Virus record (IMG/VR): IMGVR_UViG_3300006120_000018
Source: an uncultured virus (IMG/VR IMGVR_UViG_3300006120_000018)
Lineage: Duplodnaviria; Heunggongvirae; Uroviricota; Caudoviricetes
DNA length: 20,000 nt
Direction: 5' to 3' (one strand)
Shown here: positions 1 to 17,679 of the stretch, piece after piece
Layout: each line of letters opens with the position of its first letter
Position numbering within the stretch: position 1 is the stretch's first letter
Position numbers and translations under genes: made by a program
The notes under the pieces: model-generated
Seen by the model: only the letters and a program-made list of their open reading frames with translations
The model's database searches: none
What the model was told of the DNA's origin: nothing

Positions 1-1054
1 CTATAGCAGGGGATTCTTCTGTGTTTGGTGTTTCTATCGTTGTTTTTACAGCGGCTGATACTGTGTCTTTAGATATAAAATTATTGATACCCTTTAAAAA
101 ATTCACATAATCTTTTTTTATTATGTCGTTTGCTGCTGACGTTCCGATACTATTTAAAATTGTATTAGGAGAAAGTTTTAGATTTTCTTCTAATGCAACA
201 TCTATACCAAAAATTTTAATTTGGCTTTTATACCAATTTATTATACTACTAGAACAATTTAATAAACTATTGTCTTTTAATGTTGTTTTGGATTTTCCCG
301 TTATATAATCTGTGGGATAAAATAATATGTTATCTACCATATTAAAATCTGTAAATTTTGCAGTAGTTATTTTATATAGAATGCCTTCCTTTGCTTTGGT
401 TATTCCTATTATTGCATCATATATCGACATTGATTCGTATTGTGACATACCCAAAGCTTCTAATGAAGCATTTGTGTTTTTAAGTTCGGGGCATATATAC
501 TCTGAAGGTTTGTATTGATTGAATAGTTTATTTTGAAATTGTTCAAATTTATTTAAAACGAATGTTTTGTGGTTTTGTTGTGTCCCATCAATAATACTTT
601 TTATTGATGTGTTATCAGTATATAAATTTCCTAAATATCCTTCTTCTGCTTTTTTTTGTGAAAATTTCCATAAAACATATCCCAAATCTATAATAGGAAA
701 CAAATCTTCTATTGTTGCCTTTTGCGACTTAGGAAGATATGTTTTTGTACCTCCAGCATATGCTCTAGCATATCCAAATGCATCTAAAATCGTAATATCA
801 TCTGCCAAATCTTTGTTGTTTTTACTGACGATTTCTTTTACGAAATCTTTAAATCCTTTAGATTCAAAAGGTTTCGGTGGTGTAGATTCGGGGGTATCAG
901 AAGGTGGGTTTGGTGGTGGTTGGGTTGGTTTGGTGTTATTTGCCGCAGGTTGGATATTATTCGCAGGAGATTGTGGGGCATTTGGAGCCATCATAGTAGC
1001 TTCATTAACCAATAACACACTCTCCACAAATTTACTAAAATTGAACATATACAT
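1..1054 (-). CDS. Hypothetical protein, partial (runs off the left edge, about 350 aa visible); N-terminal leader ending VNEA, then a Pro-rich linker
   Basis: Missing from the ORF track because it has no stop in the window. Manual translation from ATG 1054/1048 gives M(YM)FNFSKFVESVLLVNEATMMAPNAPQSPANNIQPAANNTKPTQPPPNPPSDTPESTPPKPF...; no in-frame stop found in the stretches checked toward position 1. TAAATA lies immediately upstream. Confidence 0.8.
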   Translation of the reverse strand, partial: MYMFNFSKFVESVLLVNEATMMAPNAPQSPANNIQPAANNTKPTQPPPNPPSDTPESTPPKPFESKGFKDFVKEIVSKNNKDLADDITILDAFGYARAYAGGTKTYLPKSQKATIEDLFPIIDLGYVLWKFSQKKAEEGYLGNLYTDNTSIKSIIDGTQQNHKTFVLNKFEQFQNKLFNQYKPSEYICPELKNTNASLEALGMSQYESMSIYDAIIGITKAKEGILYKITTAKFTDFNMVDNILFYPTDYITGKSKTTLKDNSLLNCSSSIINWYKSQIKIFGIDVALEENLKLSPNTILNSIGTSAANDIIKKDYVNFLKGINNFISKDTVSAAVKTTIETPNTEESPAI

Positions 1055-1150
1055 TATTTATCTATATTTTGAAAATTTGTATGGATTTTATATACAAGGA
1101 ATATTTCGTCCAAACATACCAAAAAAATAAAATTTTGGTTAAGTAAGTAT

Positions 1151-2026
1151 ATGAATGATATTTTCTATGTTTATGCTATACTCGATCCACGAAAATCGGG
1201 AAACTATAAATATGGAAATTTTGTATTTTCGTTTGAACCATTTTATATAGGAAAGGGGAAGGGTGATAGATGTCGTAAGCATTTCACAAAAAAAGTTCTA
1301 GCAGAATCCAATTTGCCCGTTCATAATAAAATAAAGAAAATAATGAGAGAAAATTTCATGCCTGTTGTGATAAAGTTGAAAACTGAATTGTCTGAAACTG
1401 CTGCATTAGAATTGGAACGGTTGCTTATTAGTATTATGGGGAAGAGACATTATAATACTGGTATATTAGAAAATTTAATTGATGGAGGAACCGGATTTTC
1501 TGGCTATCATTATAAATTTACCGAGGAACATAAACAAAAAATTAGTAATGCGTTAAAAGGTAAGAAGAAAAGCGAAGAACATATATTAAATATTAGTAAA
1601 TCCCATAAAGGGATTCCCAATAATTGGAAGGGGAGAAAACATACAAAAGAAAGTAGATTGAATATGTCAAAAGCTAGAAAGGGAAAATCTTGGAATGCGA
1701 TTCACGGAGAAGAAAATTCGAATATCCGAAAAACCAAATCTTCTGAGAGAAGTAAGGGGAAAAATAATCCATTTTTTGGAAAAAAACATACAGATGAAGT
1801 AAAAAAATTTATATCCGAACAAAACAAAAAACTTATAGGAGAACATGCAAGAAATGCAAAAACATGGATATTCCATTCTCCTGATGGAGATAAATATATA
1901 ATTAAAGGATCATTTGGAAGATTTTGTAATGAACATGGGTTATCCATAAGTTCTATGAAAAAAGTGGCAAAAGGTAAACAAAAAACATATAAAAATTGGA
2001 GATGTTATGAAGAGAATAAAACCTAA
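1151..2026 (+). CDS. Free-standing GIY-YIG-family (LEM3-like) homing endonuclease with NUMOD3 repeats and a C-terminal HTH-like domain
   Basis: FYVYAILDPR...PFYIGKGKGDR...ALELERLLI...LENL nuclease motifs; about 4 NUMOD3-type repeats (TEEHKQKIS, SEEHILNIS, HTKESRLNMS, HTDEVKKFIS); C-terminal FCNEHGLSISSMKKVAKGK..YKNW. Confidence 0.85.
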   Translation: MNDIFYVYAILDPRKSGNYKYGNFVFSFEPFYIGKGKGDRCRKHFTKKVLAESNLPVHNKIKKIMRENFMPVVIKLKTELSETAALELERLLISIMGKRHYNTGILENLIDGGTGFSGYHYKFTEEHKQKISNALKGKKKSEEHILNISKSHKGIPNNWKGRKHTKESRLNMSKARKGKSWNAIHGEENSNIRKTKSSERSKGKNNPFFGKKHTDEVKKFISEQNKKLIGEHARNAKTWIFHSPDGDKYIIKGSFGRFCNEHGLSISSMKKVAKGKQKTYKNWRCYEENKT

Positions 2027-2468
2027 ATATAAACAAGGAGTGTTCATTTGTAGGAATCCACAGAAATATGTAGGAACACATCCCATATTTTTTCGCAGTG
2101 GCCTGGAAATGAAATTTATGCGTTGGTTAGACAGGAATCCTAATGTGATTTCTTGGAGTAGTGAATCTGTAATCATTCCGTATGTTGATCCATTATCTTT
2201 ACACACTAAAAAGATTAGGAGATATTTTGTAGATAATACAGTAGTTATAAAGGATGCTACTGGAACACCTATGAAATATTTGATAGAGATTAAACCTGAA
2301 AGCCAAACAAAACCACCAATTTCTAAACGTCATACAAAATCCCTCATAAATCAACAATTAACGTATGCCAAAAATCAAGCAAAATGGAAAGCTGCAACGG
2401 AATGGTGTGCAAAGAAAGGTGATATTAAATTTATGATAATCACAGAAAAAGATTTGAATAACCTTTAA
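2007..2468 (+). CDS. gp4: T4 gp4-like head completion protein (TnsA-like PD-(D/E)XK nuclease fold)
   Basis: N-P-x-KY-x-G, RS-x-x-E-x-x-F-x-x-WLD-x-NP, W-x-SE-x-x-x-IPY, RRYF-x-D, IEIKP-x-x-QT-x-PP, KWKAA and F-x-I-x-TE motifs all match T4 gp4; about 150 aa. Confidence 0.9.
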   Translation: MKRIKPKYKQGVFICRNPQKYVGTHPIFFRSGLEMKFMRWLDRNPNVISWSSESVIIPYVDPLSLHTKKIRRYFVDNTVVIKDATGTPMKYLIEIKPESQTKPPISKRHTKSLINQQLTYAKNQAKWKAATEWCAKKGDIKFMIITEKDLNNL

Positions 2469-3226
2469 TTATTTTCTTCTATTTCGTTATATAAATCCAT
2501 CAGTTTAACTTTGAATCTTTTCCATAATCTATTATCTTTATGGAGAATGTTTAATAGTGGTTTAAATTCGTTCATATAAGAAGGCAATTCAAGTTCATTG
2601 TATTTATCGTATGTTGAATATGGAGCGTTTATGAATATTCTTAATTTAGTCAAAAATCTTTCTTTATCATTTTTCCATGCAGATTCGCTTTTAAAGATTT
2701 CTAAGTTTCTACGTTTTAGTGATTTATATACTTCTTTTATTTTATACATCATTCCTGTTAATTGTGCTTCTAATTCTAGTGGTTCTTTGTAGTAATGTTC
2801 AGGATTTTTAAGATCAGTAATGGATTTGCCTTTCTCTAATTCCGACACTGCGTTTTTGTATTTCTCTGATTGTTTTTTATATCTCTGGATTGCATGTACA
2901 GTTTCATGAGATAATATTTCAAATAATGCATCAGCTTTGAGTGTTATTATAAAATCATAGTTTAGTTCTATTTGTTTTGTGTTTGGGTTGTATATTCCAC
3001 CAATTTTTTTATTTATTTTTTTAGATATTACAATAGGAATAGATATTTTAGTGTCGTTTTCTAAATTTGTGGTTGTTATATTTCCTATTCTTTGGTTGTG
3101 TTTTACATCTCTTTTTTTTGGGTTATTAACAAAATTATCGACAATATTGTGTATCTGGTTAATCGTATCATTATCCAGTTTGAAAAATTTAGCCTCTTTA
3201 AGAATACGGAATTCTGTAAACGTCAT
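2465..3226 (-). CDS. Zincin-like (HExxH) metallopeptidase-domain protein with capsid-targeting-like leader
   Basis: GGIY...IEL...SHETVHAIQ and downstream YY..PLELEA; N-terminus MTFTEFRILKEA; TAAATA at 3232-3237. Confidence 0.7.
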   Translation of the reverse strand: MTFTEFRILKEAKFFKLDNDTINQIHNIVDNFVNNPKKRDVKHNQRIGNITTTNLENDTKISIPIVISKKINKKIGGIYNPNTKQIELNYDFIITLKADALFEILSHETVHAIQRYKKQSEKYKNAVSELEKGKSITDLKNPEHYYKEPLELEAQLTGMMYKIKEVYKSLKRRNLEIFKSESAWKNDKERFLTKLRIFINAPYSTYDKYNELELPSYMNEFKPLLNILHKDNRLWKRFKVKLMDLYNEIEENN

Positions 3227-3230
3227 AGTA

Positions 3231-3455
3231 TTATTTAAGTGGTTTCTCGAATAATTGGAAATCTACCTTATTGTCTGTTATTTTTCCTATTACCAGAACA
3301 TCATTCCCTGTAGTTTGGTTATATATTAATGCGTATCTATCAACCATTTCTCTTACATATAAACTATTATCTTTGAAAATATATCCTTCATTAGATATTA
3401 TTTCTTCTAGCTTTTTTAGTTTTTCGTTTATATCTTTGAACTTATCTTCGTTCAT
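3231..3455 (-). CDS. Hypothetical protein (74 aa)
   Basis: Fills the gap in a tightly packed minus-strand run; TAAATA at 3461-3466; no transmembrane segment. Confidence 0.65.
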   Translation of the reverse strand: MNEDKFKDINEKLKKLEEIISNEGYIFKDNSLYVREMVDRYALIYNQTTGNDVLVIGKITDNKVDFQLFEKPLK

Positions 3456-3463
3456 TAAAATAT

Positions 3464-4150
3464 TTATGATGGTTGTAGAGAATATCCATCAAAAGGAACT
3501 CCTAAGAATACTTCAAATTTTAACATTTTTTCATCCATCCCCCCCGTTTTAGGGCTGCTTCCTATTCCTAATAACGATGCCATTGCCATACTTGCTTCTC
3601 CCAAATGATTCGCAGGACCAACATCACCAACTAACCCTTCTGCTATTTTTCCATTTTTTAAATTAGTAACTTTAACTTTCGATCCTAACACAATAGGTTT
3701 TACCATTTTAAATATTGGACTAGGTAATACAACAAATGGAACCTTCTCTGAATCTAAATATCTACGAGGATCATCAGTAGCAAATTCTTTATGTATGTAT
3801 GAAGTAGTGGATATATAATACCCTGGATATGGATCATTTTTCCCTTGTATTACTGGAACGCCATTTTTTGTTACTATTCCCCACCAGTTATTAGTATTTC
3901 CAGCATTTGATATATAGTCCAAGGTAGGCAATCCTGAACTCTCTGGTGCATAACAACGAGGACATCCATCAGCATCTATAGTTAATCCAGCAGTAAAACT
4001 TAATATGTTGTTTGCTTCATCTAATATCACTGGTTCTCCATCAATTGTTAGTAAAGTCTTGTTTATGGGAGTATTTAAATTAGAAACAGGAGATTCTATA
4101 TTTTGCTTATCCACAAATGATTGAATTATTTTTTGTACACATTCCCACAT
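3464..4150 (-). CDS. Glycoside hydrolase family 75 (chitosanase-like, double-psi beta-barrel-like) protein; candidate endolysin
   Basis: IDADG, LDSEKVPFVVLP and LGSKVKVTNLKNGK...VGDVGP..HLGEAS motifs of GH75, with putative catalytic D176/E185; TATAAGTA upstream. Confidence 0.8.
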   Translation of the reverse strand: MWECVQKIIQSFVDKQNIESPVSNLNTPINKTLLTIDGEPVILDEANNILSFTAGLTIDADGCPRCYAPESSGLPTLDYISNAGNTNNWWGIVTKNGVPVIQGKNDPYPGYYISTTSYIHKEFATDDPRRYLDSEKVPFVVLPSPIFKMVKPIVLGSKVKVTNLKNGKIAEGLVGDVGPANHLGEASMAMASLLGIGSSPKTGGMDEKMLKFEVFLGVPFDGYSLQPS

Positions 4151-4160
4151 ATATGAATAC

Positions 4161-4706
4161 TTATATAAAAATTCTTAATATTTTAAATCCCACAAACATA
4201 GCAAGTAATCCAATAATTATATTTTTCTTAAATATCTCACTATTTTGTTCTTTAATCGTTGCATCTTTTGCTGCTAAATCCAATATCATTTGGTTTGTGG
4301 CTTCTGCTTGTTTCTTTAACTGTGCATTTACATTTTCTACTTGTTCTTGTAAATTCTTCTTATCTGTTACTAATTGTTCAGATATATTTTTAATTTTTAT
4401 TAATGCGTTATATTCATCTGATCCAACGACTAATACCTTTTGGTTATTGTATCTAGCAGGAACAACCAATTTTCTTTCATTGTTTACTATAATAGATTGG
4501 ATTTTTATTCGATCTATTATACTTGGTGGGGTTACAATCTCGCATATTTGATTTAAATACGGATCAACTAAATCCATTCTACCCATCATAAAGGAATCTT
4601 TCGTAGCATAAACAGAAACGCTTAATGCTTTAGATTGTTTTTCAGTATAATAATGTCCTGTGCAAGACATTAATAAAAACGAAAAACCTATTAATAACAA
4701 TTTCAT
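4161..4706 (-). CDS. Lipoprotein with C-terminal transmembrane helix; candidate unimolecular spanin
   Basis: MKLLLIGFSFLLMS-C lipobox (Cys15, +2 residue Thr), coiled-coil-like region, C-terminal hydrophobic IIIGLLAMFVGF; AGGAG SD at 4713-4717; adjacent to the glycoside hydrolase. Confidence 0.65.
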   Translation of the reverse strand: MKLLLIGFSFLLMSCTGHYYTEKQSKALSVSVYATKDSFMMGRMDLVDPYLNQICEIVTPPSIIDRIKIQSIIVNNERKLVVPARYNNQKVLVVGSDEYNALIKIKNISEQLVTDKKNLQEQVENVNAQLKKQAEATNQMILDLAAKDATIKEQNSEIFKKNIIIGLLAMFVGFKILRIFI

Positions 4707-4728
4707 TTTAATCTCCTATATATTCCAT

Positions 4729-4974
4729 TTATTTTTTTCTTTTAATGTTCTTCCAAAATGCTGCACCTGCCACTTTTTTAGCAGTTTCTTTTGATCCATA
4801 TTCCTTTTCTGCCTTCTTTTCAACTTTCTTAAATGCTTTACCAGCCTTTCCCATATCTTTTCCTTCCTTTGCTTTTTTAACAGCAGAAGATTTTTGTTTT
4901 TTTGTTAATCCTGCGGATGGTTTTTTCTTTGCTTCGGAAATGATCGAGGTATACAATTCGTTAAATTTGTTCAT
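4729..4974 (-). CDS. Small Lys/Ala-rich basic protein with leader ending ISEA; putative internal head or DNA-binding protein
   Basis: MNKFNELYTSIISEA followed by a very basic body (GKDMGKAGKAFKKVEKKAEKEYGSKE..KKVAGAAFWK); TAAATA at 4982-4987. Confidence 0.7.
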   Translation of the reverse strand: MNKFNELYTSIISEAKKKPSAGLTKKQKSSAVKKAKEGKDMGKAGKAFKKVEKKAEKEYGSKETAKKVAGAAFWKNIKRKK

Positions 4975-4996
4975 ATATTATTATTTAATGTTTTTG

Positions 4997-5024
4997 TTGA
5001 TTATTTGTATAGTTGTGATAAGAT
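4997..5024 (+). promoter_or_regulatory. Sigma70-like early/middle promoter TTGATT-N16-TAAGAT with extended TG
   Basis: -35 at 4997-5002, -10 at 5019-5024, 6 nt before ATG 5031; same geometry as three other promoters in the window. Confidence 0.55.
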
Positions 5025-5030
5025 ATATCC

Positions 5031-5537
5031 ATGAATATTAAAAAGCTTCTGGAAGAGTTGGTGCATTATTATGGGTATTCCAGACAAGTCGGACATACAA
5101 CTGCTATGTGCAAAGGGGCGGAAAATACAGAAAACGGAATAGTAATAACGCATAATCAAAATATGAAGAGATATTTGGAAGATTATATTACAAATCCTGA
5201 TATAAAATATGTTACATTGAATGATATAGAAAGATGTGGTGGGTTGCGTGGATTCGCTAAACCAATAATGTTCGATAATGCCGCACTATTTGAAGTGTTA
5301 AATTCCGCACTTAACACCATTAAAAATTTAGAAGACACAATATCAGATTATAAATCCACTGTATTTACAACAAAAACACCACTAGGATTAACTCCAAGAT
5401 ATATTAAAGATTCTGAAAGATTGAAAGAAATAAGTGCCGCGATTTTCCGTTATACTGAAGTTGGAAAGAAGATTCCTGATGAGTGGATTGAAGAAATGGT
5501 AGAATTAAATGAAAGAATTTCATTGACATCCGAATAA
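5031..5537 (+). CDS. Hypothetical protein with degenerate P-loop-like motif and a small C-terminal phage domain
   Basis: SRQVGHTT resembles an RQxGKT Walker A with K->H; IMFDN resembles a Walker B; C-terminal PLGLTPR...RLKEI..AI.RY....IP.EWIEE. Confidence 0.7.
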   Translation: MNIKKLLEELVHYYGYSRQVGHTTAMCKGAENTENGIVITHNQNMKRYLEDYITNPDIKYVTLNDIERCGGLRGFAKPIMFDNAALFEVLNSALNTIKNLEDTISDYKSTVFTTKTPLGLTPRYIKDSERLKEISAAIFRYTEVGKKIPDEWIEEMVELNERISLTSE

Positions 5538-5550
5538 AAGGTGTTAATAT
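5523..5550 (+). promoter_or_regulatory. Sigma70-like promoter TTGACA-N16-TAATAT with extended TG
   Basis: Perfect -35 TTGACA at 5523-5528, -10 at 5545-5550, 9 nt before ATG 5560. Confidence 0.7.
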
Positions 5551-5559
5551 GTAGGAATT

Positions 5560-6528
5560 ATGGGCGGATCAGCATTAAAAAATACTTACACACGTAGATA
5601 CTCTGCGGAAGAATTTCATACATTAAAATCAGAAATACACACTCTGATAGATAGTGTGTTTGCTCGGTCATATATCTTCGAGTCATGGAAAAACAAGGAA
5701 AGTTTTGGTGACCTGGATTGTTTAGTTCAATTACATCCAAATTTCAACATTAAAGAATTTATCATCAATACCTTTCATCCAAATGAGATATTCCATAATG
5801 GTAATTGTTATTCCTTTGATTATAAAGAATTTCAAATAGATTTTATTATATGTAGTGAAAAATATTGGGAAACGTCTATTGTATATCTAAAATATGGAGA
5901 TTTGGGGAACTTTATGGGGAGAATCTCTAAAGCAATATTTGGATTAAAATATGGTCATGATGGATTATCCTTTTCTTTAATAGCAGAAACTTCTAATCAG
6001 GTATATGAAACTATTAATATAAGCACAAATTCCCAAGATATTTTCAAATTTTTAGGTTTTGATTGGGATGTGTTTTGTAAGGGATTTGATATGATGGAAG
6101 ATATTTTTGAATATGTTAAAACATCAAAATATTTCAATGCTAAACTATTTGATTTTGAAGAGTTAAATCATATTAATAGAACAAGGAACCGAAAAAGAGA
6201 TGGTTATTGCAAATTTTTGGAATATATCAAAGATTTACCAAAAGTAGAAATTGCTAGGCCGAAAATTATAGATACGTTAAATTATATACAAGAAGGATTT
6301 GAAATATCTTTATATGAATATTACTATAAAACTCTAAAAAACATAAAGAATAAACAAATTGCAAGAAAACGTGTTGTTCAAATTGTAAGAGATGCAGGAT
6401 ATGAACAAAAAGCATTAGGAGAAGTTATGTCAAAATTAAATACATGGATAAATGAAAACACAATTCAAATATGTAATGAAGATGTTAACAAATTAATTCA
6501 AACAATTCACCAAAAAATACAAATATGA
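5560..6528 (+). CDS. Pol-beta/PolX-superfamily nucleotidyltransferase
   Basis: KESFGDLDCLV (D51, D53) and FQIDFI (D94) catalytic triad; GLKYGHDGL and QDIFKFLG resemble PolX thumb motifs. Confidence 0.7.
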   Translation: MGGSALKNTYTRRYSAEEFHTLKSEIHTLIDSVFARSYIFESWKNKESFGDLDCLVQLHPNFNIKEFIINTFHPNEIFHNGNCYSFDYKEFQIDFIICSEKYWETSIVYLKYGDLGNFMGRISKAIFGLKYGHDGLSFSLIAETSNQVYETINISTNSQDIFKFLGFDWDVFCKGFDMMEDIFEYVKTSKYFNAKLFDFEELNHINRTRNRKRDGYCKFLEYIKDLPKVEIARPKIIDTLNYIQEGFEISLYEYYYKTLKNIKNKQIARKRVVQIVRDAGYEQKALGEVMSKLNTWINENTIQICNEDVNKLIQTIHQKIQI

Positions 6529-6776
6529 CAGAAGAAAACCGATTTGATAATTTAATTAAGAATATTGTATATAGAAATGTTACAGTAGTTATAATAAATG
6601 ATCCAGATAATTGTATGTTATATGGGTTTCCAGTATTAGATGTTATTACCGCAATTGAAGAATATAACGGAGCAAAAGTTATGAGCCGACACCCGAACTT
6701 TTTTAGAGTTCACTACGCAAAAAATTATGAAAACAACAAACAAAAAAGAAAAGATTACCACCAAAACCACAAATAA
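6525..6776 (+). CDS. Hypothetical protein (83 aa)
   Basis: ATGA overlap with the upstream gene; 3' end overlaps the vWA gene. Confidence 0.55.
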   Translation: MTEENRFDNLIKNIVYRNVTVVIINDPDNCMLYGFPVLDVITAIEEYNGAKVMSRHPNFFRVHYAKNYENNKQKRKDYHQNHK

Positions 6777-7443
6777 AAAGAAAACACCAAAGAAGATAAT
6801 TTATGATTTCTTTGTTCTTGATAGGAGTGGTTCGATGCAAAGAATTAAAGACTCTACAATCACTGGCGTTAATGAATACCTGAATACTGCTAGAAATGAT
6901 GCAAAGAAAACTAAAATTAAAACGTATTTTTCTTTATTAACTTTCGATAATGAATTTGATGTGGTATATGATTATGTTGATATTTTAAAGGTTGAAAATT
7001 TAACAGACAAAGATTTCATCCCTAGAAATAATACGGCTTTGCGAGATGCGACAGGTAGAGCAATAACATCTTTGCAAAACAAGTTGAAAGGCAAAGAAAA
7101 CGATGAAAATATTGATGTAACAATTACAATTTTCACGGATGGATATGAAAACGCATCAACAGAATATACACATGAAACTATTGCCGAACTTATTAAAAAG
7201 GTTCAAGATGAATATAAATGGACAGTTGTATATATTGGCGCAGGAAACAAACAAAAAGTATTATCTATAGCAAAAGGAATGAACATTAATATTACTAATA
7301 CTTCTTCGTATACTGCAAATTCTGAGGATATGAAGAATATGATGCATACCAATAGCATTTCTAGAAGCACGAAAACTATGAACTTTGCAGCAGATATCAA
7401 ATCAACTGTTGGATATTTCGTTGATCCTACTACAAAAGTTTAA
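6727..7443 (+). CDS. von Willebrand factor A (vWA) domain protein
   Basis: MIDAS motif FVLDRSGSM, TALRDA, IFTDGYENAS, W.VVYIGA. Confidence 0.9.
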   Translation: MKTTNKKEKITTKTTNKKKTPKKIIYDFFVLDRSGSMQRIKDSTITGVNEYLNTARNDAKKTKIKTYFSLLTFDNEFDVVYDYVDILKVENLTDKDFIPRNNTALRDATGRAITSLQNKLKGKENDENIDVTITIFTDGYENASTEYTHETIAELIKKVQDEYKWTVVYIGAGNKQKVLSIAKGMNINITNTSSYTANSEDMKNMMHTNSISRSTKTMNFAADIKSTVGYFVDPTTKV

Positions 7444-7459
7444 AATTAAATCATAACAA

Positions 7460-7500
7460 AAAATAAAGCCGTTAGAACCAAAATCTAACGGCTTTATTTT
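7460..7500. terminator. Intrinsic, potentially bidirectional terminator
   Basis: Perfect 17-bp inverted repeat aaaataaagccgttaga / tctaacggctttatttt with a 7-nt loop, just downstream of the vWA stop. Confidence 0.85.
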
Positions 7501-7523
7501 ATTCAATTTCCATAAATATTAAT

Positions 7524-7730
7524 ATGGAATTCTCTACTACAAATTCGAAATATTATAGTGAGATATATGATTATCTATTAGAAAAGGTAGAAACATCTTC
7601 CAGTAACAATTACGAATATTTGCTAGGACAAGTTCAATTTGCGTATGCTTTAGCTATAATTGAAGATAAAACTAGAAAGAAATTATGTAGAATTTTAGAA
7701 AAACGAAAGAACATCCAATTAAATAGTTAA
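7524..7730 (+). CDS. Hypothetical protein (68 aa)
   Basis: TAAATA at 7513-7518 just upstream; abuts the next gene. Confidence 0.65.
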   Translation: MEFSTTNSKYYSEIYDYLLEKVETSSSNNYEYLLGQVQFAYALAIIEDKTRKKLCRILEKRKNIQLNS

Positions 7731-7731
7731 T

Positions 7732-7959
7732 ATGCCACTCAAAAAAGGAAAATCTAAAAAGACTATCAGCAAAAATATTGGTGAATTAGTGAAAACATAT
7801 AAAGAAACTGGTAAGATTGGAAATACCAAACCTAAATCCAAAAAGAAAGCGGCACAGATAGCAGCAGCAATTGCATACAGCAAAGCAAAAAACGAAGGTA
7901 TGATTTTTTCAGATATGGTATTAAATATACTATCTGAAAATGATAAATTAAATAATTAA
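7732..7959 (+). CDS. Small basic phage protein (MPLKKG..KTIS.NI.E...AAAIAYS type)
   Basis: Recognisable widespread phage small-protein motif; TAAATA at 7720-7725; C-terminal EGMIFSDMVLNILSE tail. Confidence 0.75.
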   Translation: MPLKKGKSKKTISKNIGELVKTYKETGKIGNTKPKSKKKAAQIAAAIAYSKAKNEGMIFSDMVLNILSENDKLNN

Positions 7960-7963
7960 ATGT

Positions 7964-8440
7964 TTATCTAATCCATTTAGATAAATCCTCTGCTTTATCT
8001 AACGGAATATTCTCAAGCTGCTTTGTAACTTGAGATTCTATATCATCATGCCATAAAACGCAAGTAGCTTCTTCAATAGAAAATAAATCTTTTGAACTAC
8101 TAGGATTTGGATTCACCAATGCATTTAATTGTTTTTCTTGGCATTGCAATCTTTTTTTGTTTTTGTTCCATATCTCCACAGTATCAGGAGTATATAAATA
8201 GGCAATTTTAAACATTCTTATGAAATTTTTAAATCTTGTTATTGGAGTAGATTTTGTTTTAGGATGATAAAACCTAGGACCAACCATTATAATCCCAAAA
8301 TCAAATGGATTATAATTTAGTGAAATGTCTTTATTGCCTAATGTGAAATTTATAGCATTTTTTATACGATCTATGACAGTATATTTATAAGCTTTATCGG
8401 GGTTTGTTACTGCGGTGAAGTCTATTTCTTTATTATACAT
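7964..8440 (-). CDS. Hypothetical protein, paralogue of 8433-8786
   Basis: Shares K-x-x-K[YF][TS][VI]IDR[IV]K-x-A, D-x-FSI and L-x-N[IL]PL[DE] motifs with its neighbour. Confidence 0.7.
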   Translation of the reverse strand: MYNKEIDFTAVTNPDKAYKYTVIDRIKNAINFTLGNKDISLNYNPFDFGIIMVGPRFYHPKTKSTPITRFKNFIRMFKIAYLYTPDTVEIWNKNKKRLQCQEKQLNALVNPNPSSSKDLFSIEEATCVLWHDDIESQVTKQLENIPLDKAEDLSKWIR

Positions 8441-8786
8441 GATATTTATCTCCTACGATTCTGATATTTTCTAATGGAAGGTTTTTTAATTTTTCTTCTA
8501 TATTTTTAATAGAAAATACATCATTACCTACCTTATATGATGTATCTACTGATGTATCTGTAATAATACCACGTTTAACTTTGTCGGTAATATCATTAGT
8601 TGTGATGATACTCAATTTTTCTAAATATTCACAATATCTGTTATGTGTGTGTATATTATCAGGAACTTTATTATATCCATAAATCATTCCTTTTATTCCA
8701 TATTGCATTGCTTGTTTTACTCGATCAATTATACTAAATTTGTGTTTCTTCATATTTTTATTTATATCTTTTATGTTATTTTTCAA
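8433..8786 (-). CDS. Hypothetical protein, paralogue of 7964-8440 (start uncertain)
   Basis: TTG start in the ORF track; an internal ATG (MKKHKF) is an alternative start; 8-bp overlap with the downstream gene. Confidence 0.65.
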   Translation of the reverse strand: MKNNIKDINKNMKKHKFSIIDRVKQAMQYGIKGMIYGYNKVPDNIHTHNRYCEYLEKLSIITTNDITDKVKRGIITDTSVDTSYKVGNDVFSIKNIEEKLKNLPLENIRIVGDKYHV

Positions 8787-8822
8787 CTAGATCGTGAAAA
8801 ATTCCCTTCCATCCACATTTAC

Positions 8823-8871
8823 AATATTGAGGTAAGAAAGCCCACTGATCTTCAGTCAGTGGGTAGTTCAC
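8823..8871 (+). mobile_element. 49-bp non-autonomous IS200/IS605-family relic (single-hairpin LE/RE hybrid, PATE-like)
   Basis: TTAC (8819-8822) | 14 nt | AAAG | CCCACTGA-tcttcag-TCAGTGGG hairpin | TAGTTCAC. A GC-richer island in AT-rich DNA, with IS608-type left-end layout 5' and a typical ..TCAC right end 3'. Confidence 0.7.
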
Positions 8872-9539
8872 CATAATGTATAATCCGTTATGTTTTTTGT
8901 GTCTCCCGTTACCTTATTTAGAATTTCGGTTGACATTCCTATTCCATTAAGTTCAAATTGAAACTTAAAATTTATATCACCAAAAGTTTTATTGTATTTC
9001 TCACATTGTTCTTTTTTAAATTTTAAAAAGGCGTTCACTTCGGTATCCGATAATTTAAAATTGTATGGGTGAAGAATCGGAAGTTCCTTTGTATTTAATG
9101 TTATACCCTTTTTGTCCGTGCTTCCAAATCCTTTTTCGCCACGATTTGTTAGTTCCAATTCTTCAACTTCTTCAAATTCTGCATCATAGTGTTTCTCAAA
9201 TATTATTTGTGCAATTTTATCTCCTTTTTTAACTCCTAATGTTTTATTATTATCAGTGTTTAATAATATTGCACCTATATCTCCAGTATAATCTGAATCG
9301 ATAACCCCTGCAAGCACCGAAATTCCAACTTTATATGCTAATCCACTTCTTCCTGCTATCCGTCCATAATATCCTTTTGGGAGTTTTAATGATATATTGG
9401 TTTTGAATAGATGTCTTTCCCCTGTATCTAGTATATAATCCTCTGTAGAGTAAAGATCATATCCTGCTGCATGATCCGTACCTTTAGTTGGAATGATTGC
9501 AAGGTCGCTTAATTTTTTGACTTGTATTTTAAGATTCAT
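8868..9539 (-). CDS. dut: Trimeric dUTPase fused to an extra C-terminal domain of about 80 aa
   Basis: All five motifs present: AGYDL, GRSG, GVIDSDYTG, IAQ, RGEKGFGST; extension ending ...GIG...NITDYTLW. Confidence 0.95.
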   Translation of the reverse strand: MNLKIQVKKLSDLAIIPTKGTDHAAGYDLYSTEDYILDTGERHLFKTNISLKLPKGYYGRIAGRSGLAYKVGISVLAGVIDSDYTGDIGAILLNTDNNKTLGVKKGDKIAQIIFEKHYDAEFEEVEELELTNRGEKGFGSTDKKGITLNTKELPILHPYNFKLSDTEVNAFLKFKKEQCEKYNKTFGDINFKFQFELNGIGMSTEILNKVTGDTKNITDYTLW

Positions 9540-9545
9540 TGTTAT

Positions 9546-9573
9546 ATTTTAACATAAAATCTTGAAATATCAA
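9546..9573 (-). promoter_or_regulatory. Sigma70-like promoter TTGATA-N16-TAAAAT with extended TG
   Basis: -10 ends 6 nt before the dut ATG (9539). Confidence 0.6.
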
Positions 9574-9574
9574 A

Positions 9575-10843
9575 TTATGATAAGAATTTTCTATAAAGGT
9601 TATCAAATTTACTGATAGATTCTGGTATTTCGGATTTTGTTTCTCTAGTTGCAAATTCGTTAATATGATCAATAATAATGGATGCAGTATCTTTAATTGC
9701 AGATTCGTGTTGTGTGATATGTTCAGGATCGATTTTCCATAATGCCATATATTTGTGTGTATGTTCCGCTGGTAAATCAAATTCCCTTAATACTACATTA
9801 GCAACTCCTTCTGCTTGTAATTCTTTAACTAGTGAGGATAATGATGCTCTATCTTCTTTACTATGCATTAATTCATGAGCAATTTCATGTATCATTGTAG
9901 ATATATTTTCTTGTAATAATGCAATACTTCCTCCCATGCTTACTCCTCTAGCTCCTGGGTGACCAACATTACCAATTTCTACTTTAATGTTTTTGGATTT
10001 TGCTAAATCTAATAATGCATCAAATATGACTTTGGTTTTTTCATTGGTATTTTCATCGCTATACCATTTTGGAGTTTCTGGTATTTCCTTTGCTTTTCCC
10101 TCGATTGGTTCCGTTTGTGAAATGTCAAATACTGGAACTAATTTAAATTTAGCATAGTTTCTTAGATCATTGCTAGTTTGAGGTTGTGGATCAGTATCTT
10201 CTAATTCTTCTTTATCTTTTTTCTTGCTGATTGGGATGTAGATGTATATTCCTTTTTCTCCAGCTTTGAGTCTTCTTCCAAATTCTGTTTCCCACTGTTT
10301 TCTGCCTTTGATATGAGTTGCATCAGGCTTTTGCATGAAAATTAAAATTGTATTATATAAAGAATATTTTCGGAACTTCTTTTTGAAATCCATAAAGTCT
10401 TTAACCTCTTTACTTTGTGCAGCTTCAGATACTTTAGATTTTAATTCATTAATAAAGTTTGATATTCTTTCGCTAAATCCTACATCGCCATATTCTTCAA
10501 TTTCTTCTGCTTTTGTAATAATATAATCCAATTTATTAATATCATTGAGTGCTTTTTGGAATATTGGAATTTGTTTTTCAAAATCTTCTAAATTATATTT
10601 TTCTGTGGATACCCATTTTCTGGTATTTGTTCTATCAAAATAAAATAGCCCTGATCCTTTTATTAACTCTCTTTTAATAAAGGTTTCGTTATTTCCTTTT
10701 GCGACATCAGGATTATCACTAGTTACTACAAATGAATATTCATCATTAGGCAAACTTCTTTTCTTAAGAATTAAATTTTCTCCAAATAAAGATGTTTCTT
10801 CTTCGTCTAATATTCTACTTAATACATCATCAAATTTACTCAT
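9575..10843 (-). CDS. ArdC-like N-terminal ssDNA-binding domain plus zincin metallopeptidase (antirestriction/polyvalent-type protein)
   Basis: F.KYSLYNTILI.MQ.PDAT.IKGRKQW...GR.LKAGEKGI.I..P...F..VPVFDISQTE (ArdC-N); HEIAHELMH...ELQAE (zincin); extra N-terminal region of about 140 aa. Confidence 0.85.
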   Translation of the reverse strand: MSKFDDVLSRILDEEETSLFGENLILKKRSLPNDEYSFVVTSDNPDVAKGNNETFIKRELIKGSGLFYFDRTNTRKWVSTEKYNLEDFEKQIPIFQKALNDINKLDYIITKAEEIEEYGDVGFSERISNFINELKSKVSEAAQSKEVKDFMDFKKKFRKYSLYNTILIFMQKPDATHIKGRKQWETEFGRRLKAGEKGIYIYIPISKKKDKEELEDTDPQPQTSNDLRNYAKFKLVPVFDISQTEPIEGKAKEIPETPKWYSDENTNEKTKVIFDALLDLAKSKNIKVEIGNVGHPGARGVSMGGSIALLQENISTMIHEIAHELMHSKEDRASLSSLVKELQAEGVANVVLREFDLPAEHTHKYMALWKIDPEHITQHESAIKDTASIIIDHINEFATRETKSEIPESISKFDNLYRKFLS

Positions 10844-11246
10844 AATGTGGTGCGTCTTGTATTTGTGATCCTTTTTCGTTTTCTAAATATATAATCAATA
10901 CACCATCCGTTTCATCAATATAATGATCAAACATTGCTTGGGCGACATGTTCAGCATTTTTATGATCATGAACTTCAACACTTTCTAATGGGGTAAATTG
11001 AGTGTAATACCATCCACCTTCTTCATGCCCACCAAATTCTCTAGTTTTGTCGTATGCAGTTACAAATAATGGAAAATTTATATTATCGCTATCTTCATCA
11101 ACTACGTAATCAAGATGTGCCGTGTTTTCAAAATCTTGTTGTTTTTTATTTGGGTATCCTTGTCCGTGAGGCATACCAGTATCTTCTTTTATAGTAAGAA
11201 TTTTTTCGTATGCTTCTTGTAGTAAATCAATATCAGTTTTTTTCAT
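10836..11246 (-). CDS. Hypothetical acidic phage protein with FGGxEEGGWYY motif
   Basis: YDKTREFGGHEEGGWYY and C-terminal PHYE; leader MKKTDIDLLQEAYEKILTIKED; 8-bp overlap with the ArdC-like gene. Confidence 0.75.
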   Translation of the reverse strand: MKKTDIDLLQEAYEKILTIKEDTGMPHGQGYPNKKQQDFENTAHLDYVVDEDSDNINFPLFVTAYDKTREFGGHEEGGWYYTQFTPLESVEVHDHKNAEHVAQAMFDHYIDETDGVLIIYLENEKGSQIQDAPHYE

Positions 11247-11252
11247 AATAAA

Positions 11253-12014: not shown

Positions 12015-12045
12015 AATATACTTATATTTATCTGTATATGACAAA

Positions 12046-14991: not shown

Positions 14992-14995
14992 GATA

Positions 14996-15005
14996 TACTT
15001 ATTTA
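14996..15005 (-). promoter_or_regulatory. Late-promoter-like motif TAAATAAGTA heading the SNF2-ArdC operon (representative of about 13 copies)
   Basis: TAA(A/G)TA within about 15 nt of starts at 1054, 1151, 3226, 3455, 4150, 4974, 7524, 7732, 12014, 14991, 18255, 19167 and 19430; resembles the T4 gp55-dependent TATAAATA. Confidence 0.6.
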
Positions 15006-15015
15006 TGTATATCTT

Positions 15016-15786: not shown

Positions 15787-15793
15787 ATGTGAT

Positions 15794-15821: not shown

Positions 15822-15840
15822 GTTTGTGAATATATTTTTA

Positions 15841-17678: not shown

Positions 17679-17679
17679 T

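What the first reader, a model, noticed from the sequence alone, without database searches (positions are those of the whole stretch)
3464..4717. Candidate novel lysis cassette: u-spanin-like lipoprotein next to a GH75 chitosanase/DPBB-type hydrolase
Seen: 4161-4706 has an N-terminal lipobox plus a C-terminal TM helix, which is the topology of unimolecular spanins such as T1 gp11, though here with a coiled-coil-like body. Directly downstream is a GH75-like enzyme (IDADG; GD176VGP...GE185AS) with its own TATAAGTA motif and no obvious signal peptide. Its GSKVKVTNLKNGK...GDVGP segment also resembles the RlpA-type double-psi beta-barrel lytic transglycosylase motif. To my knowledge GH75 is not a standard endolysin class. 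Inference: it is an endolysin, possibly acting on de-N-acetylated peptidoglycan, and the host is diderm.
Basis: partly seen in the sequence, partly recalled or inferred. Interest (0 to 1): 0.7.

Follow-up and report, generated by a model that had tools for sequence, protein, structure and literature searches.

The report
Likely GH75 endolysin with unimolecular spanin
A T4-like phage carries a membrane-bridging lipoprotein gene next to an enzyme from a family published as a soil-virus "chitosanase" metabolic gene, and the genomic evidence suggests that this enzyme is really the phage's cell-wall-cutting lysis enzyme.

Summary

**The enzyme.** Window 3464-4150(-) encodes a 228-aa homolog of V-Csn, the crystallised soil-viral GH75 endo-chitosanase (PDB 7TVL; phmmer E 5e-33; model Z 25.7). 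It keeps the D-D-D-E active site (D59, D61, D176, E185).

**The lipoprotein.** Window 4161-4706(-) encodes a 181-aa protein with a lipobox (LLMSC, Cys15 invariant in 8 of 8 homologs) and a C-terminal transmembrane helix. This is the unimolecular-spanin topology.

**Published reading.** V-Csn-type genes are published as auxiliary metabolic genes.

**Evidence here for lysis:**
- In 34 phage clusters, lipobox ORFs lie upstream of the GH75 gene in 13 of 34, against 1 of 99 control windows.
- Curated holin families abut the gene in three clusters.
- 26 of 28 GH75-bearing viral records (15 of 17 that are at least 90% complete) have no hit to 12 endolysin families.
- 19 of 108 longer relatives fuse the domain to PG_binding_1, LysM, CHAP, GH25, Amidase_2 or similar modules. 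No chitin-binding module appeared.
- The stand-alone phage forms lack signal peptides.

**Limits.** Peptidoglycan cleavage is untested, no holin was found, and 39% of the genome is unseen.

**Verdict.** Probable GH75 endolysin plus a helical u-spanin, confidence 0.6.

The parts
3464..4150 (-). 228-aa V-Csn-like GH75 enzyme (double-psi beta-barrel plus a second domain). No signal peptide. Candidate holin-dependent endolysin.
   Evidence: ORF. phmmer to PDB 7TVL E 5.1e-33. Profile E 2.4e-53. AF2 pLDDT 93. Foldseek TM 0.77. VIA Z 25.7. Pfam PF07335 only 22.2 bits, below the cut-off of 27.
3968..3976 (-). Codons for D59-A60-D61 of the IDADG motif. They correspond to V-Csn D34 and D36 (D36 is the proposed catalytic base).
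   Evidence: The two Asp columns are nearly invariant (90% or more) among the 25 homologs. Aligned to V-Csn. Roles taken from PMC9485262 sections read.
3596..3625 (-). Codons D176 to E185 (GDVGPANHLGE). D176 corresponds to V-Csn D148 and E185 to V-Csn E157 (proton donor).
   Evidence: D176, G178, P179, G184 and E185 are invariant in 25 homologs. Codons read. The V-Csn D148N and E157Q mutants lose activity (PMC9485262).
4161..4706 (-). 181-aa lipoprotein with a C-terminal transmembrane helix. Candidate unimolecular spanin with a long helical stalk.
   Evidence: ORF. Lipobox and terminal hydrophobic segment. 7 homolog clusters, with Cys15 invariant and the C-terminal hydrophobic stretch kept. 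AF2 gives a helix over 96-180 with pLDDT 83-90 across residues 111-170; the rest is low.
4662..4706 (-). Signal peptide and lipobox (MKLLLIGFSFLLMS-C15).
   Evidence: Read directly from the sequence. Cys15 is invariant in 8 of 8 sequences.
4164..4235 (-). C-terminal membrane anchor (residues about 158-181, IIIGLLAMFVGFKILRIFI).
   Evidence: Kyte-Doolittle scan. The hydrophobic character is conserved in the homologs.
4151..4160 (-). 10-nt spacer between the two genes. It suggests co-transcription in a five-gene minus-strand block (4974 to 2465) with gaps of 22, 10, 8 and 4 nt.

Best explanation
The two genes are the peptidoglycan-layer and outer-membrane-layer lysis genes of a T4-like myovirus of a diderm host.

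**The enzyme.** The 228-aa protein is a V-Csn-type GH75 glycosidase. It is made without a signal peptide and accumulates in the cytoplasm. After the inner membrane is permeabilised by a holin (not identified here), it reaches the wall. There it cuts beta-1,4 bonds of the peptidoglycan glycan strand, using E185 as proton donor and D61 as base, with D59 and D176 holding the substrate.

**The lipoprotein.** The 181-aa protein is lipidated at Cys15 and sorted to the outer membrane, while its C-terminal helix stays in the inner membrane. It therefore spans the periplasm through the wall meshwork. Once the wall is cut it is free to collapse and fuse or disrupt the two membranes, as unimolecular spanins are thought to do. 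Here that would happen through a roughly 65-residue helical stalk rather than beta strands.

**Shown here:** homology, active-site conservation, fold, topology, gene adjacency and its conservation, and the family-wide association with lysis genes and wall-binding domains.

**Inferred:** peptidoglycan as the substrate, the bond cleaved, dependence on a holin, and spanin activity.
For: **1. Identity.** E 5.1e-33 to V-Csn. Fold Z 25.7 with 197 residues aligned. The D-D-D-E tetrad is conserved.

**2. Neighbourhood.** 61 viral loci fell into 39 clusters, and 34 representatives had at least 1.5 kb of upstream sequence.
- A lipobox ORF lies on the same strand within 1.5 kb upstream in 13 of 34, against 1 of 99 distant same-strand control windows (Fisher p 3e-8).
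- A small transmembrane ORF lies there in 27 of 34 against 13 of 99.
- Both occur in 11 of 34 against 0 of 99.

**3. Curated families among the neighbours.**
- Phage_holin_6_1 above cut-off in L007 (33.7 bits) and L008 (31.9 bits).
- Phage_holin_10 in L058 (48.9 bits), directly abutting the GH75 gene.
- Amidase_3 (56 bits) directly downstream in L059.
- PHROG holin hits in L007, L008 and L060.

**4. No other endolysin.** 12 Pfam endolysin families were searched over 28 GH75-bearing viral records, 17 of them at least 90% complete. The families were GH24, Amidase_2, GH19, SLT, GH108, M15_4, M15_3, Amidase_3, GH25, Hydrolase_2, NLPC_P60 and M23.
- Hits occurred only in G020 (GH108, a 171-aa ORF) and G018 (Amidase_2 inside a 1576-aa ORF, plus a 16-bit M15_4 hit).
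- So 26 of 28 records, and 15 of 17 complete ones, have none.
- In the window's own phage, 131.5 kb was scanned. The only other wall enzyme is a VanY domain inside the gp5-like baseplate hub.

**5. Domain fusions.** Of 108 relatives longer than 235 aa, drawn from the best 149 of 2687 representatives, 19 carry a wall-binding or wall-cleaving partner above the Pfam cut-off: PG_binding_1 in 12 (two of these also with CHAP), GH25 in 2, and Amidase_2, YkuD_2, NLPC_P60, LysM and SLH in 1 each. No chitin-binding module was seen.

**6. Export signals.** 0 of 25 close homologs and 1 of 41 short representatives have an N-terminal hydrophobic segment. At least 42 of 80 copies in bacterial genomes do.

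**7. Lipoprotein.** The lipobox Cys is invariant and the C-terminal anchor is kept in 8 of 8 sequences. It is the only ORF in 131.5 kb with both signals, and no two-component spanin pair was found. Unrelated lipobox / helical Ala-Gln-rich / C-terminal-TM proteins of 170-245 aa sit beside GH75 genes in at least 6 other phage clusters: L002/L005, L012, L025, L028, L057 and L059.

**8. Synteny.** GH75 follows the lipoprotein in L076, L077, L079 and L080, with 51-72% identity for the lipoprotein and 43-57% for the enzyme.

**9. Host range.** 78 of the best 80 bacterial-genome relatives come from diderm phyla, 44 of them Bacteroidota.

**10. Literature.** A 2025 survey lists Streptococcus phage endolysins that carry a Glyco_hydro_75 domain (PMC12294143; passage seen).
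Against: - The one characterised member, V-Csn, hydrolyses AZCL-chitosan and binds a GlcN trisaccharide (PMC9485262). Nobody has tested peptidoglycan.
- No holin was found in the window, and no holin family was found in 131.5 kb.
- The nearest held record is only 61% complete, so a canonical endolysin could lie in the unseen part.
- Relatives L081 and L082 keep the lipoprotein but have no GH75 gene at this site, so the pairing is not obligatory.
- G020 carries a normal GH108 endolysin as well as GH75.
- The antisense control for small transmembrane ORFs was high (22 of 34). That measure is weak, and my gene calling was a crude longest-ORF scheme.
- Only 3 of 83 neighbour ORFs hit lysis PHROGs. 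3 of the 85 ORFs in the Pfam scan (mostly the same neighbours) hit holin Pfams above cut-off.
- The GH19 search had silent controls.
- The lipoprotein differs from the u-spanins surveyed in 2018. Its C-terminal half is helical rather than beta-rich, and it has a periplasmic Cys55, although that Cys is not conserved. Its N-terminal domain model is unreliable (pLDDT below 50).
- It has no hit to any spanin family.
Confidence: 0.6

Rival explanations
1. This is the published reading: the GH75 gene is an auxiliary metabolic gene. Its product is a chitosanase, released at lysis or acting for the host, that breaks down chitosan or deacetylated chitin from fungal or arthropod debris as a carbon and nitrogen source. 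The lipoprotein next door is unrelated.
For: V-Csn (33% identity, same fold) releases dye from AZCL-chitosan, loses activity in the D148N and E157Q mutants, and binds chitotriose in the crystal (PMC9485262). Fungal and bacterial GH75 enzymes are chitosanases (same paper). Many cellular relatives are secreted, including T9SS cargo in Bacteroidota, which fits extracellular polymer degradation.
Against: - The phage forms have no export signal.
- They are embedded among holin-like and spanin-like genes.
- The genomes that carry them mostly lack any other endolysin.
- The fusion partners are wall-binding and wall-cleaving domains, and none is a chitin-binding module.
- Side activity on chitin or chitosan is known for several lysozyme families (recalled, not tested here).
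- The paper never tested peptidoglycan, and the words lysis, lysin and peptidoglycan do not occur in its text.
Confidence: 0.17
2. The GH75 enzyme is a wall or envelope glycanase used for something other than end-of-cycle lysis. Examples are local wall remodelling at entry, degradation of a GlcN-rich exopolysaccharide or capsule, or interference with superinfecting phages. The real endolysin would be an unrecognised protein elsewhere.
For: T4-like phages scatter their lysis genes and carry extra wall enzymes; here that is a VanY domain in the baseplate hub. A double-psi barrel domain occurs in a cyanophage baseplate protein (8kea, Z 7.3). 39% of the genome is unseen.
Against: The gene is small, stands alone, lies outside the structural module, and shares an operon-like block with a spanin-like gene. 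In other phages it abuts holins. No candidate for a different endolysin was found in 15 of 17 complete genomes.
Confidence: 0.1
3. The 181-aa lipoprotein is not a spanin. It could be a superinfection-exclusion or receptor-masking lipoprotein, or a membrane-anchored regulator such as an antiholin or an inhibitor of incoming wall enzymes, that merely neighbours the enzyme.
For: Phage lipoproteins with exclusion roles are known (recalled: T5 Llp, Cor). Relatives L081 and L082 keep the lipoprotein without GH75. Its helical stalk and periplasmic Cys differ from the surveyed u-spanins. It has no spanin family hit. A second lipoprotein exists in the genome at G001 6315-6824.
Against: - A lipid anchor together with a C-terminal transmembrane helix is the topology that defines u-spanins (PMC6139136).
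- It is the only such ORF in 131.5 kb, and no two-component spanin was found.
- The same architecture recurs beside GH75 genes in at least 6 unrelated phage clusters.
- A spanin works with any endolysin, so the absence of GH75 in L081 does not argue against it.
Confidence: 0.3

Closest known systems
V-Csn, soil-viral GH75 endo-chitosanase (PDB 7TVL-7TVP; Wu et al. 2022, PMC9485262)
   Same: Homologous over about 195 residues (E 5.1e-33, 33% identity). Same two-domain fold with a double-psi beta-barrel (Z 25.7). Same D-D-D-E tetrad. Same stand-alone size without a signal peptide. Also phage-encoded.
   Different: The window's protein has a 30-residue N-terminal extension with an amphipathic helix, shared only with P0002, P0003 and P0005. 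It sits in a T4-like myovirus next to a spanin-like gene. V-Csn was interpreted as a metabolic helper gene, whereas the evidence here points to a lysis role for the family.
[quoted passage not shown]
   Same: Catalytic Asp/Glu pair and the conserved acidic tetrad. Inverting mechanism inferred.
   Different: They are secreted enzymes with signal peptides (recalled). The Pfam model scores the window's protein below its cut-off (22.2 against 27 bits), and only 11 of 25 close homologs match at E 0.01 or better.
T1 gp11, prototype unimolecular spanin (Kongari et al. 2018, PMC6139136)
   Same: N-terminal lipoprotein signal with lipobox plus a C-terminal transmembrane domain. The gene lies beside the wall-degrading enzyme.
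   Different: There is no sequence similarity (no hit). It is 181 aa, compared with 131 aa for gp11 as I recall it. The periplasmic part ends in a long helix rather than mainly beta strands, and it has one non-conserved periplasmic Cys, whereas none of the 58 surveyed u-spanins has one.
Lambda Rz/Rz1 and T4 PseT.3/PseT.2 two-component spanins
   Same: A helical, coiled-coil-like periplasmic stalk attached to an inner-membrane helix, and an outer-membrane lipid anchor.
   Different: Here both anchors are on one polypeptide, in the reverse order to a simple Rz-Rz1 fusion: lipid anchor at the N-terminus and the TMD at the C-terminus. No separate o-spanin or i-spanin pair was found.
[quoted passage not shown]
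   Same: A GH75-type domain inside proteins that are accepted as endolysins.
   Different: They are multidomain enzymes of monoderm-host phages. I did not fetch or align them. The window's enzyme is a single-domain protein of a phage with a probable diderm host.
RlpA and MltA double-psi beta-barrel lytic transglycosylases
   Same: The same barrel core. PA4485, which I recall as RlpA-like, gives Z 8.0 with 91 residues aligned.
   Different: No Pfam DPBB_1 or 3D-domain hit. MltA gives only Z 4.1-4.2. The active site is the GH75 tetrad.

Membership tests
GH75 / V-Csn family | Significant sequence homology to a characterised GH75 enzyme | tested here: met
   phmmer E 5.1e-33 to 7TVL over residues 21-217. 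Family profile E 2.4e-53.
GH75 / V-Csn family | Four conserved acidic residues D-D-D-E (V-Csn D34, D36, D148, E157) | tested here: met
   D59, D61, D176 and E185 align to them. D176 and E185 are invariant and D59 and D61 at least 90% conserved in 25 homologs. The definition comes from PMC9485262.
GH75 / V-Csn family | Two-domain fold with a double-psi beta-barrel | tested here: met
   AF2 pLDDT 93. Foldseek TM 0.75-0.77 to 7TVL-7TVP. VIA Z 25.7, with the next hit at 9.2.
GH75 / V-Csn family | Score above the Pfam PF07335 gathering cut-off (a supporting criterion, not a defining one, because the model is built on fungal enzymes) | tested here: not met
   22.2 bits against a cut-off of 27. Direct homology to V-Csn, which its authors place in GH75, overrides this.
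GH75 / V-Csn family | Endo-chitosanase activity | not testable with these tools
   Needs an enzyme assay.
Phage endolysin (functional class) | Degrades host peptidoglycan at the end of infection | not testable with these tools
The indirect support is fusion of the domain to PG_binding_1, LysM, CHAP, GH25, Amidase_2, NLPC_P60, YkuD_2 or SLH in 19 of 108 long relatives.
Phage endolysin (functional class) | Gene lies with holin and/or spanin genes | tested here: met
   In this phage it lies 10 nt downstream of a spanin-topology gene, with no holin nearby. Across the family, lipobox ORFs are upstream in 13 of 34 clusters against 1 of 99 controls, and holin Pfams score above cut-off in L007, L008 and L058.
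Phage endolysin (functional class) | No other endolysin in the genome | tested here: inconclusive
   For this phage, none was found in 131.5 kb, but the record is 61% complete. Among relatives, 15 of 17 records that are at least 90% complete have no hit to 12 endolysin families. The GH19 control was silent.
Phage endolysin (functional class) | Cytoplasmic accumulation (no secretion signal) or a SAR anchor | tested here: met
   There is no N-terminal hydrophobic segment in the window's protein or in any of the 25 homologs.
Unimolecular spanin (definition of Kongari 2018) | N-terminal lipoprotein signal with a lipobox cysteine | tested here: met
   MKLLLIGFSFLLMSC. Cys15 is invariant in 8 of 8 sequences. 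The test was a rule-based script, not a trained predictor.
Unimolecular spanin (definition of Kongari 2018) | C-terminal transmembrane domain | tested here: met
   Kyte-Doolittle mean of 2.39 over residues 163-181. The stretch is conserved in the homologs. The model continues the helix into it.
Unimolecular spanin (definition of Kongari 2018) | Located in or beside the lysis cassette | tested here: inconclusive
   It is adjacent to the GH75 gene. This counts only if that gene is the endolysin.
Unimolecular spanin (definition of Kongari 2018) | Typical (not defining) features: a beta-rich periplasmic domain and no periplasmic cysteine | tested here: not met
   Long helix over 96-180. Cys55 is present in 6 of 8 sequences. 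The survey's description was read.
Unimolecular spanin (definition of Kongari 2018) | Complements a lambda Rz/Rz1 defect | not testable with these tools
   Needs a genetic experiment.
RlpA / MltA lytic transglycosylases | Match to the DPBB_1 or 3D-domain sequence families | tested here: not met
   Pfam gave no such family at E up to 0.1. Structural similarity is limited to the barrel core (Z 8.0 and 4.2).

The most novel reading that the evidence does not exclude
The whole V-Csn-type GH75 family of phages, published and repeatedly cited as the best-validated soil-virus auxiliary metabolic gene, is in fact a widespread, unrecognised catalytic class of endolysin. The profile search found 2687 cluster representatives for the wider family, phage and cellular forms together, and no member matches PHROGs or the GenBank phages. 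It is often partnered by an equally unrecognised class of unimolecular spanins built as lipid anchor, helical stalk and C-terminal membrane helix.
Probability: 0.5. Interest if true: 0.78.

Novelty: new variant of a known kind. Interest (0 to 1): 0.62.

Why it matters
**If the reading holds:**
- A structurally solved enzyme used as the flagship proof that soil viruses carry working carbon-cycling genes would be a lysis enzyme instead. This changes how viral CAZyme counts are read in ecosystem models.
- Phage biology would gain a new endolysin catalytic fold (GH75, a double-psi beta-barrel). It is absent from cultured-phage catalogues: 0 of 25 members hit PHROGs, and there was no tblastn match in 50,697 GenBank phage records.
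- A helical type of unimolecular spanin would widen the known ways of breaching the outer membrane.
- New endolysin folds active on diderm walls are also of practical interest as enzybiotics.

**A simple test is within reach.** V-Csn protein and its mutants already exist and only need to be put on peptidoglycan.

Tried and rejected
- **T4-type late promoter.** TATAAGTA lies 7 nt before the ATG and overlaps the upstream stop codon. The exact TATAAATA word is not enriched (4 found against 6.3 expected). I dropped it.
- **Cultured-phage relatives.** Megablast of 3000-5200 and tblastn of the enzyme against 50,697 phage records both gave no match.
- **Family libraries.** PHROGs gave no hit for the enzyme or for any of 25 family members. 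NCBIfam gave nothing for the five genes of the block beyond a weak SprT hit.
- **Own assembly.** It is not held, so I used the nearest record, G001 (99.98% identical over window 1-16738).
- **Lipoprotein relatives.** None appeared among the GH75 loci by tblastn or in viral contigs. Relatives were found only in metagenome contigs.
- **Whole-record search of L074, L080, L081 and L082.** The records are not held. I therefore could not ask which endolysin the GH75-less relative L081 uses.
- **Weak Peptidase_M15_4 hit (16 bits) in G018.** By my coordinate conversion it falls in the 157-aa ORF upstream of V-Csn-type genes. Pfam scans of four such ORFs did not reproduce it, so I do not count it.
- **phrog_2252 ('endolysin; inhibits RNA polymerase') on window 15016-15786.** It overlaps a dATP/dGTP diphosphohydrolase domain. 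It is not a lysin.
- **Lipoprotein structure.** Mean pLDDT is 59 and the N-terminal half is unreliable, so I did no fold search on it. The ESM Atlas gave only unnamed viral and Bacteroidota clusters of about 190 aa (scores 0.93-0.94).
- **Genome-contig scan.** The first attempt, with the 25-sequence alignment, was rejected for lack of a conserved stretch. I repeated it with an 11-sequence alignment.
- **Holin.** I found none. A 111-aa ORF with two transmembrane segments (G001 109055-109390, conserved in L081) is only a candidate.
- **Earlier scan notes.** Look-ups by sequence and by place returned nothing.
Full report
**Observation**

They lie inside a tightly packed five-gene minus-strand block running from 4974 to 2465.

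The 181-aa product begins MKLLLIGFSFLLMSC and ends in a strongly hydrophobic stretch. The 228-aa product carries IDADG and GDVGP...GEAS and has no N-terminal hydrophobic segment.

Both are real genes. The enzyme has 24 further homolog clusters in the word-indexed protein search and 2687 cluster representatives in the profile search. The lipoprotein has 7 homolog clusters.

The TATAAGTA motif exists at 4158-4165(-). It overlaps the upstream stop codon and ends 7 nt before the ATG. The canonical TATAAATA word is not enriched in this AT-rich window (4 found against 6.3 expected), so I give it no weight.

**What the enzyme is**

Pfam reports only a sub-threshold GH75 match (22.2 bits against a cut-off of 27). 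A search of solved structures settles the question. The protein is homologous to V-Csn, the 'viral chitosanase' of PDB 7TVL-7TVP (phmmer E 5.1e-33; family profile E 2.4e-53).

An AlphaFold model built on 25 sequences has pLDDT 93. It superposes on V-Csn with TM 0.75-0.77 and Z 25.7. The next hits are generic double-psi beta-barrels: kiwellin 9.2, a papain inhibitor 8.3, loosenin 8.1, PA4485 (which I recall as RlpA-like) 8.0, expansins about 7, and MltA 4.2.

V-Csn residues D34, D36, D148 and E157 correspond to D59, D61, D176 and E185 here. These columns are invariant or nearly invariant in the family. In V-Csn, the D148N and E157Q mutants lose activity. E157 is proposed as the proton donor and D36 as the base of an inverting mechanism (PMC9485262; sections read).

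The RlpA/MltA resemblance is only the shared barrel.

**The phage**

The window's assembly is not held. A 128-kb viral record, G001, is 99.98% identical over window positions 1-16738.

PHROG and Pfam scans of 145 ORFs over 131.5 kb were run: 141, 84 of them re-scanned with Pfam, and 4 boundary ORFs. They show a T4-like myovirus with portal, prohead protease, major head protein, sheath, tube, baseplate wedge, UvsX, replicative helicase, DNA polymerase, gp32-type SSB, clamp loader, SbcCD, ribonucleotide reductase, PhoH, many homing endonucleases and IS-type transposases.

The major head protein is only about 34% identical to those of cyanophages.

No lysis-category family was found apart from a spurious phrog_2252 hit on a dNTP diphosphohydrolase domain. 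The only other wall enzyme is a VanY peptidase domain inside the gp5-like baseplate hub. CheckV rates the record 61% complete, so this absence is not conclusive.

**Endolysin or metabolic gene**

Wu et al. (2022) retrieved 142 such genes from viral contigs and showed that one of two soluble proteins hydrolyses AZCL-chitosan. They solved its structure and concluded that soil viruses carry functional auxiliary metabolic genes. The words lysis, lysin and peptidoglycan do not occur in that text. The authors filtered candidates only against lysozyme HMMs.

I tested the lysis alternative in five ways.

1. *Neighbourhood.* 61 viral loci encoding relatives fell into 39 clusters at 80% identity, and 34 representatives had at least 1.5 kb of upstream sequence.
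   - A lipobox ORF lies on the same strand within 1.5 kb upstream in 13 of 34. The figure is 1 of 99 for distant same-strand windows and 2 of 34 for the antisense strand.
   - A small transmembrane ORF lies there in 27 of 34, against 13 of 99 in distant windows. The antisense control was high here (22 of 34), so this measure is weak.
   - Both features occur together in 11 of 34 against 0 of 99 (Fisher p 3e-8, 2e-12 and 8e-8).
2. *Curated families.* Of 83 such neighbour ORFs, 3 hit holin PHROGs.
   - A Pfam scan of 85 ORFs, mostly these neighbours plus a few extra ORFs, gave Phage_holin_6_1 above cut-off in L007 and L008.
   - The same scan gave Phage_holin_10 above cut-off in L058, where the holin abuts the GH75 gene.
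   - Amidase_3 lies directly downstream in L059.
   - Most neighbours match nothing, as expected for uncultivated phages.
3. *Missing alternatives.* I searched 12 endolysin Pfam families over 28 GH75-bearing viral records, which represent 24 clusters. Seventeen records are at least 90% complete.
   - The only hits were a GH108 ORF of 171 aa in G020, an Amidase_2 domain inside a 1576-aa ORF in G018, and a 16-bit M15_4 hit in G018.
   - So 26 of 28 records, and 15 of 17 complete ones, have none.
   - The GH19 control genomes were silent, so that one search is uninformative.
4. *Domain partners.* Of the best 149 representatives, 108 are longer than 235 aa, and 19 of these carry wall-binding or wall-cleaving domains above the Pfam cut-off.
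   - These are PG_binding_1 in 12 (two also with CHAP), GH25 in 2, and one each of Amidase_2, YkuD_2, NLPC_P60, LysM and SLH.
   - Another 10 are T9SS cargo.
   - No chitin-binding module appears.
   - PG_binding_1 followed by a catalytic domain is, from memory, the classic layout of modular endolysins of diderm-host phages.
5. *Export.* None of the 25 close homologs, and 1 of 41 short representatives, has an N-terminal hydrophobic segment. At least 42 of 80 copies in bacterial genomes do. This is the contrast expected between holin-dependent phage lysins and secreted cellular enzymes.

In addition, a 2025 survey lists Streptococcus phage endolysins with a Glyco_hydro_75 domain (PMC12294143; passage seen, proteins not checked here).

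*Against the lysis reading:*
- Chitosanase is the only activity ever shown for the family.
- G020 has a normal endolysin as well as GH75.
- No holin was found in this phage.
- Part of its genome is unseen.

**The lipoprotein**

Its 7 homolog clusters keep the lipobox cysteine (invariant Cys15) and the hydrophobic C-terminus.

The AlphaFold model is poor overall (pLDDT 59). It does give a confident continuous helix from about residue 96 into the membrane anchor, with pLDDT 83-90 over residues 111-170.

A lipid anchor plus a C-terminal TMD is the defining topology of unimolecular spanins (Kongari 2018; passages read). Those authors describe beta-rich periplasmic domains and no periplasmic cysteine in all 58 examples. 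This protein is helical in its C-terminal half and has a non-conserved Cys55, and it matches no spanin family.

It is the only ORF in 131.5 kb that combines both signals, and I found no i-spanin/o-spanin pair.

The same architecture recurs beside GH75 genes in at least six other phage clusters without detectable sequence similarity to it: L002/L005, L012, L025, L028, L057 and L059. It consists of a lipobox, a 100-170-residue Ala/Gln/Lys-rich region that looks helical, and one or two C-terminal TMDs. Other clusters have short, classic o-spanin-like lipoproteins instead (L010/L011, L013, L050, L062).

**Synteny**

Nine metagenome loci encode lipoprotein relatives.
- Two are the same phage as the window.
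- In L076 and L077 (lipoprotein 72% identical) and in L080 (51%), the GH75 gene follows within about 50 nt.
- In L079 a 168-aa soluble ORF is inserted between the two genes.
- L078 ends too early to tell.
- In L081 and L082 (50%) the lipoprotein is followed directly by the homolog of the next gene, with no GH75.

The pair is therefore usually kept together but not always. This is compatible with a spanin that works with whatever endolysin the phage has. I could not search the rest of the L081 record.

**Host**

The best 80 of 252 relatives in bacterial genomes come from:

| Phylum | Count |
|---|---|
| Bacteroidota | 44 |
| Myxococcota | 15 |
| Verrucomicrobiota | 9 |
| Cyanobacteria | 6 |
| Planctomycetota | 2 |
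| Actinomycetota, Chloroflexota, Acidobacteriota, Alphaproteobacteria | 1 each |

This is my count from the record titles. Seventy-eight of the 80 are from diderm phyla.

A diderm host also fits the T4-like virion and the lipoprotein. Bacteroidota is a lead only; the ESM Atlas look-alikes of the lipoprotein point the same way.

**Novelty**

The protein family is known and structurally solved. What differs is the function.

Full-text searches found no paper that reassigns viral GH75 to lysis:
- GH75 + endolysin: 2 papers.
- Glyco_hydro_75 + phage: 1 paper.
- chitosanase / holin / spanin: only one paper holds all three terms.
- chitosanase + endolysin + auxiliary metabolic: 3 papers.

A 2026 preprint that reclassifies soil-viral CAZymes as lysis-associated still treats GH75 as a validated chitosanase (passages seen). 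A 2025 review repeats the metabolic-gene reading.

Two earlier notes of this scan, on a Streptomyces prophage, reached the same suspicion. They are not independent evidence, but the fusion data partly test their claim.

I rate the finding as a new variant of a known kind: a known enzyme family in an unrecognised role, partnered by an atypical unimolecular spanin.

**Limits**

- The gene calling and the lipobox and TM detection were simple scripts.
- The supplements of Wu et al. were not opened.
- All functional statements about peptidoglycan cleavage and membrane fusion are inference.

Noticed in passing
window 4729-4974 (-): An 81-aa lysine-rich protein with no TM sits directly upstream of the lipoprotein. 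It is conserved at that position in relatives (76-86% identity in L076-L080). In L081 an equally basic 76-aa ORF takes its place. It could be a nucleic-acid binder or a cationic membrane-active lysis accessory. It has no family hit.
   Followed up: partly
window 15016-15786 (-): A fusion of a DUF4406 / nucleoside 2-deoxyribosyltransferase-like domain with a dATP/dGTP diphosphohydrolase N-terminal domain (PF18909, 75 bits). From memory, the latter is the MazZ-type enzyme of phages with 2-aminoadenine genomes. This may point to modified DNA.
   Followed up: no
window 16431-18255 (-) and G001 86545-88208: Two IS200/IS605-like transposase gene pairs lie inside the phage genome (phrog_506, 12300, 6620, 2577). 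The genome also carries many GIY-YIG and HNH homing endonucleases, for example window 1151-2026 and 18319-19167.
   Followed up: no
G001 68400-72424 (L066:8400-12424): The large terminase appears split. A 757-aa ORF and a separate 145-aa ORF both hit terminase PHROGs, and a 425-aa ORF with no family hit lies between them. The DNA polymerase ORF is 1520 aa, with polymerase matches only from residue 690 onward. Both look like insertions (intein, intron or homing element).
   Followed up: no
G001 16970-18892 (L063): The gp5-like baseplate hub carries a VanY D-Ala-D-Ala carboxypeptidase domain (PF02557, 41 bits) where T4 gp5 has a lysozyme domain.
   Followed up: no
window 2465-3226 (-) and 15841-16380 (-): There are two SprT-like metallopeptidase ORFs. 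The first scores 25.1 bits, just under the cut-off of 25.6. The second scores 27.2 bits. The first is the last gene of the block that holds the GH75 gene and is syntenic in relatives.
   Followed up: no
G001 109055-109390 (-); L081 9541-9906 (+): A 111-aa ORF with two transmembrane segments is conserved between the window's phage and the GH75-less relative. It has no family hit. It is a possible holin.
   Followed up: partly
loci L084, L087, L100, L107, L108, L113, L115, L118 and others: Many cellular relatives of the enzyme are in bacterial predators or micropredators (recalled biology): Myxococcota such as Archangium, Enhygromyxa and Plesiocystis, and the planctomycete Ca. Uabimicrobium. Some start with what look like signal peptides or PG_binding_1-like motifs. 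They might be secreted bacteriolytic weapons rather than chitosanases.
   Followed up: no
PDB 8kea_A residues 283-390: A baseplate protein of cyanophage A-1(L) contains a double-psi barrel that aligns to the enzyme model at Z 7.3 over 99 residues. It is possibly a virion-borne wall-active domain of the same fold.
   Followed up: no
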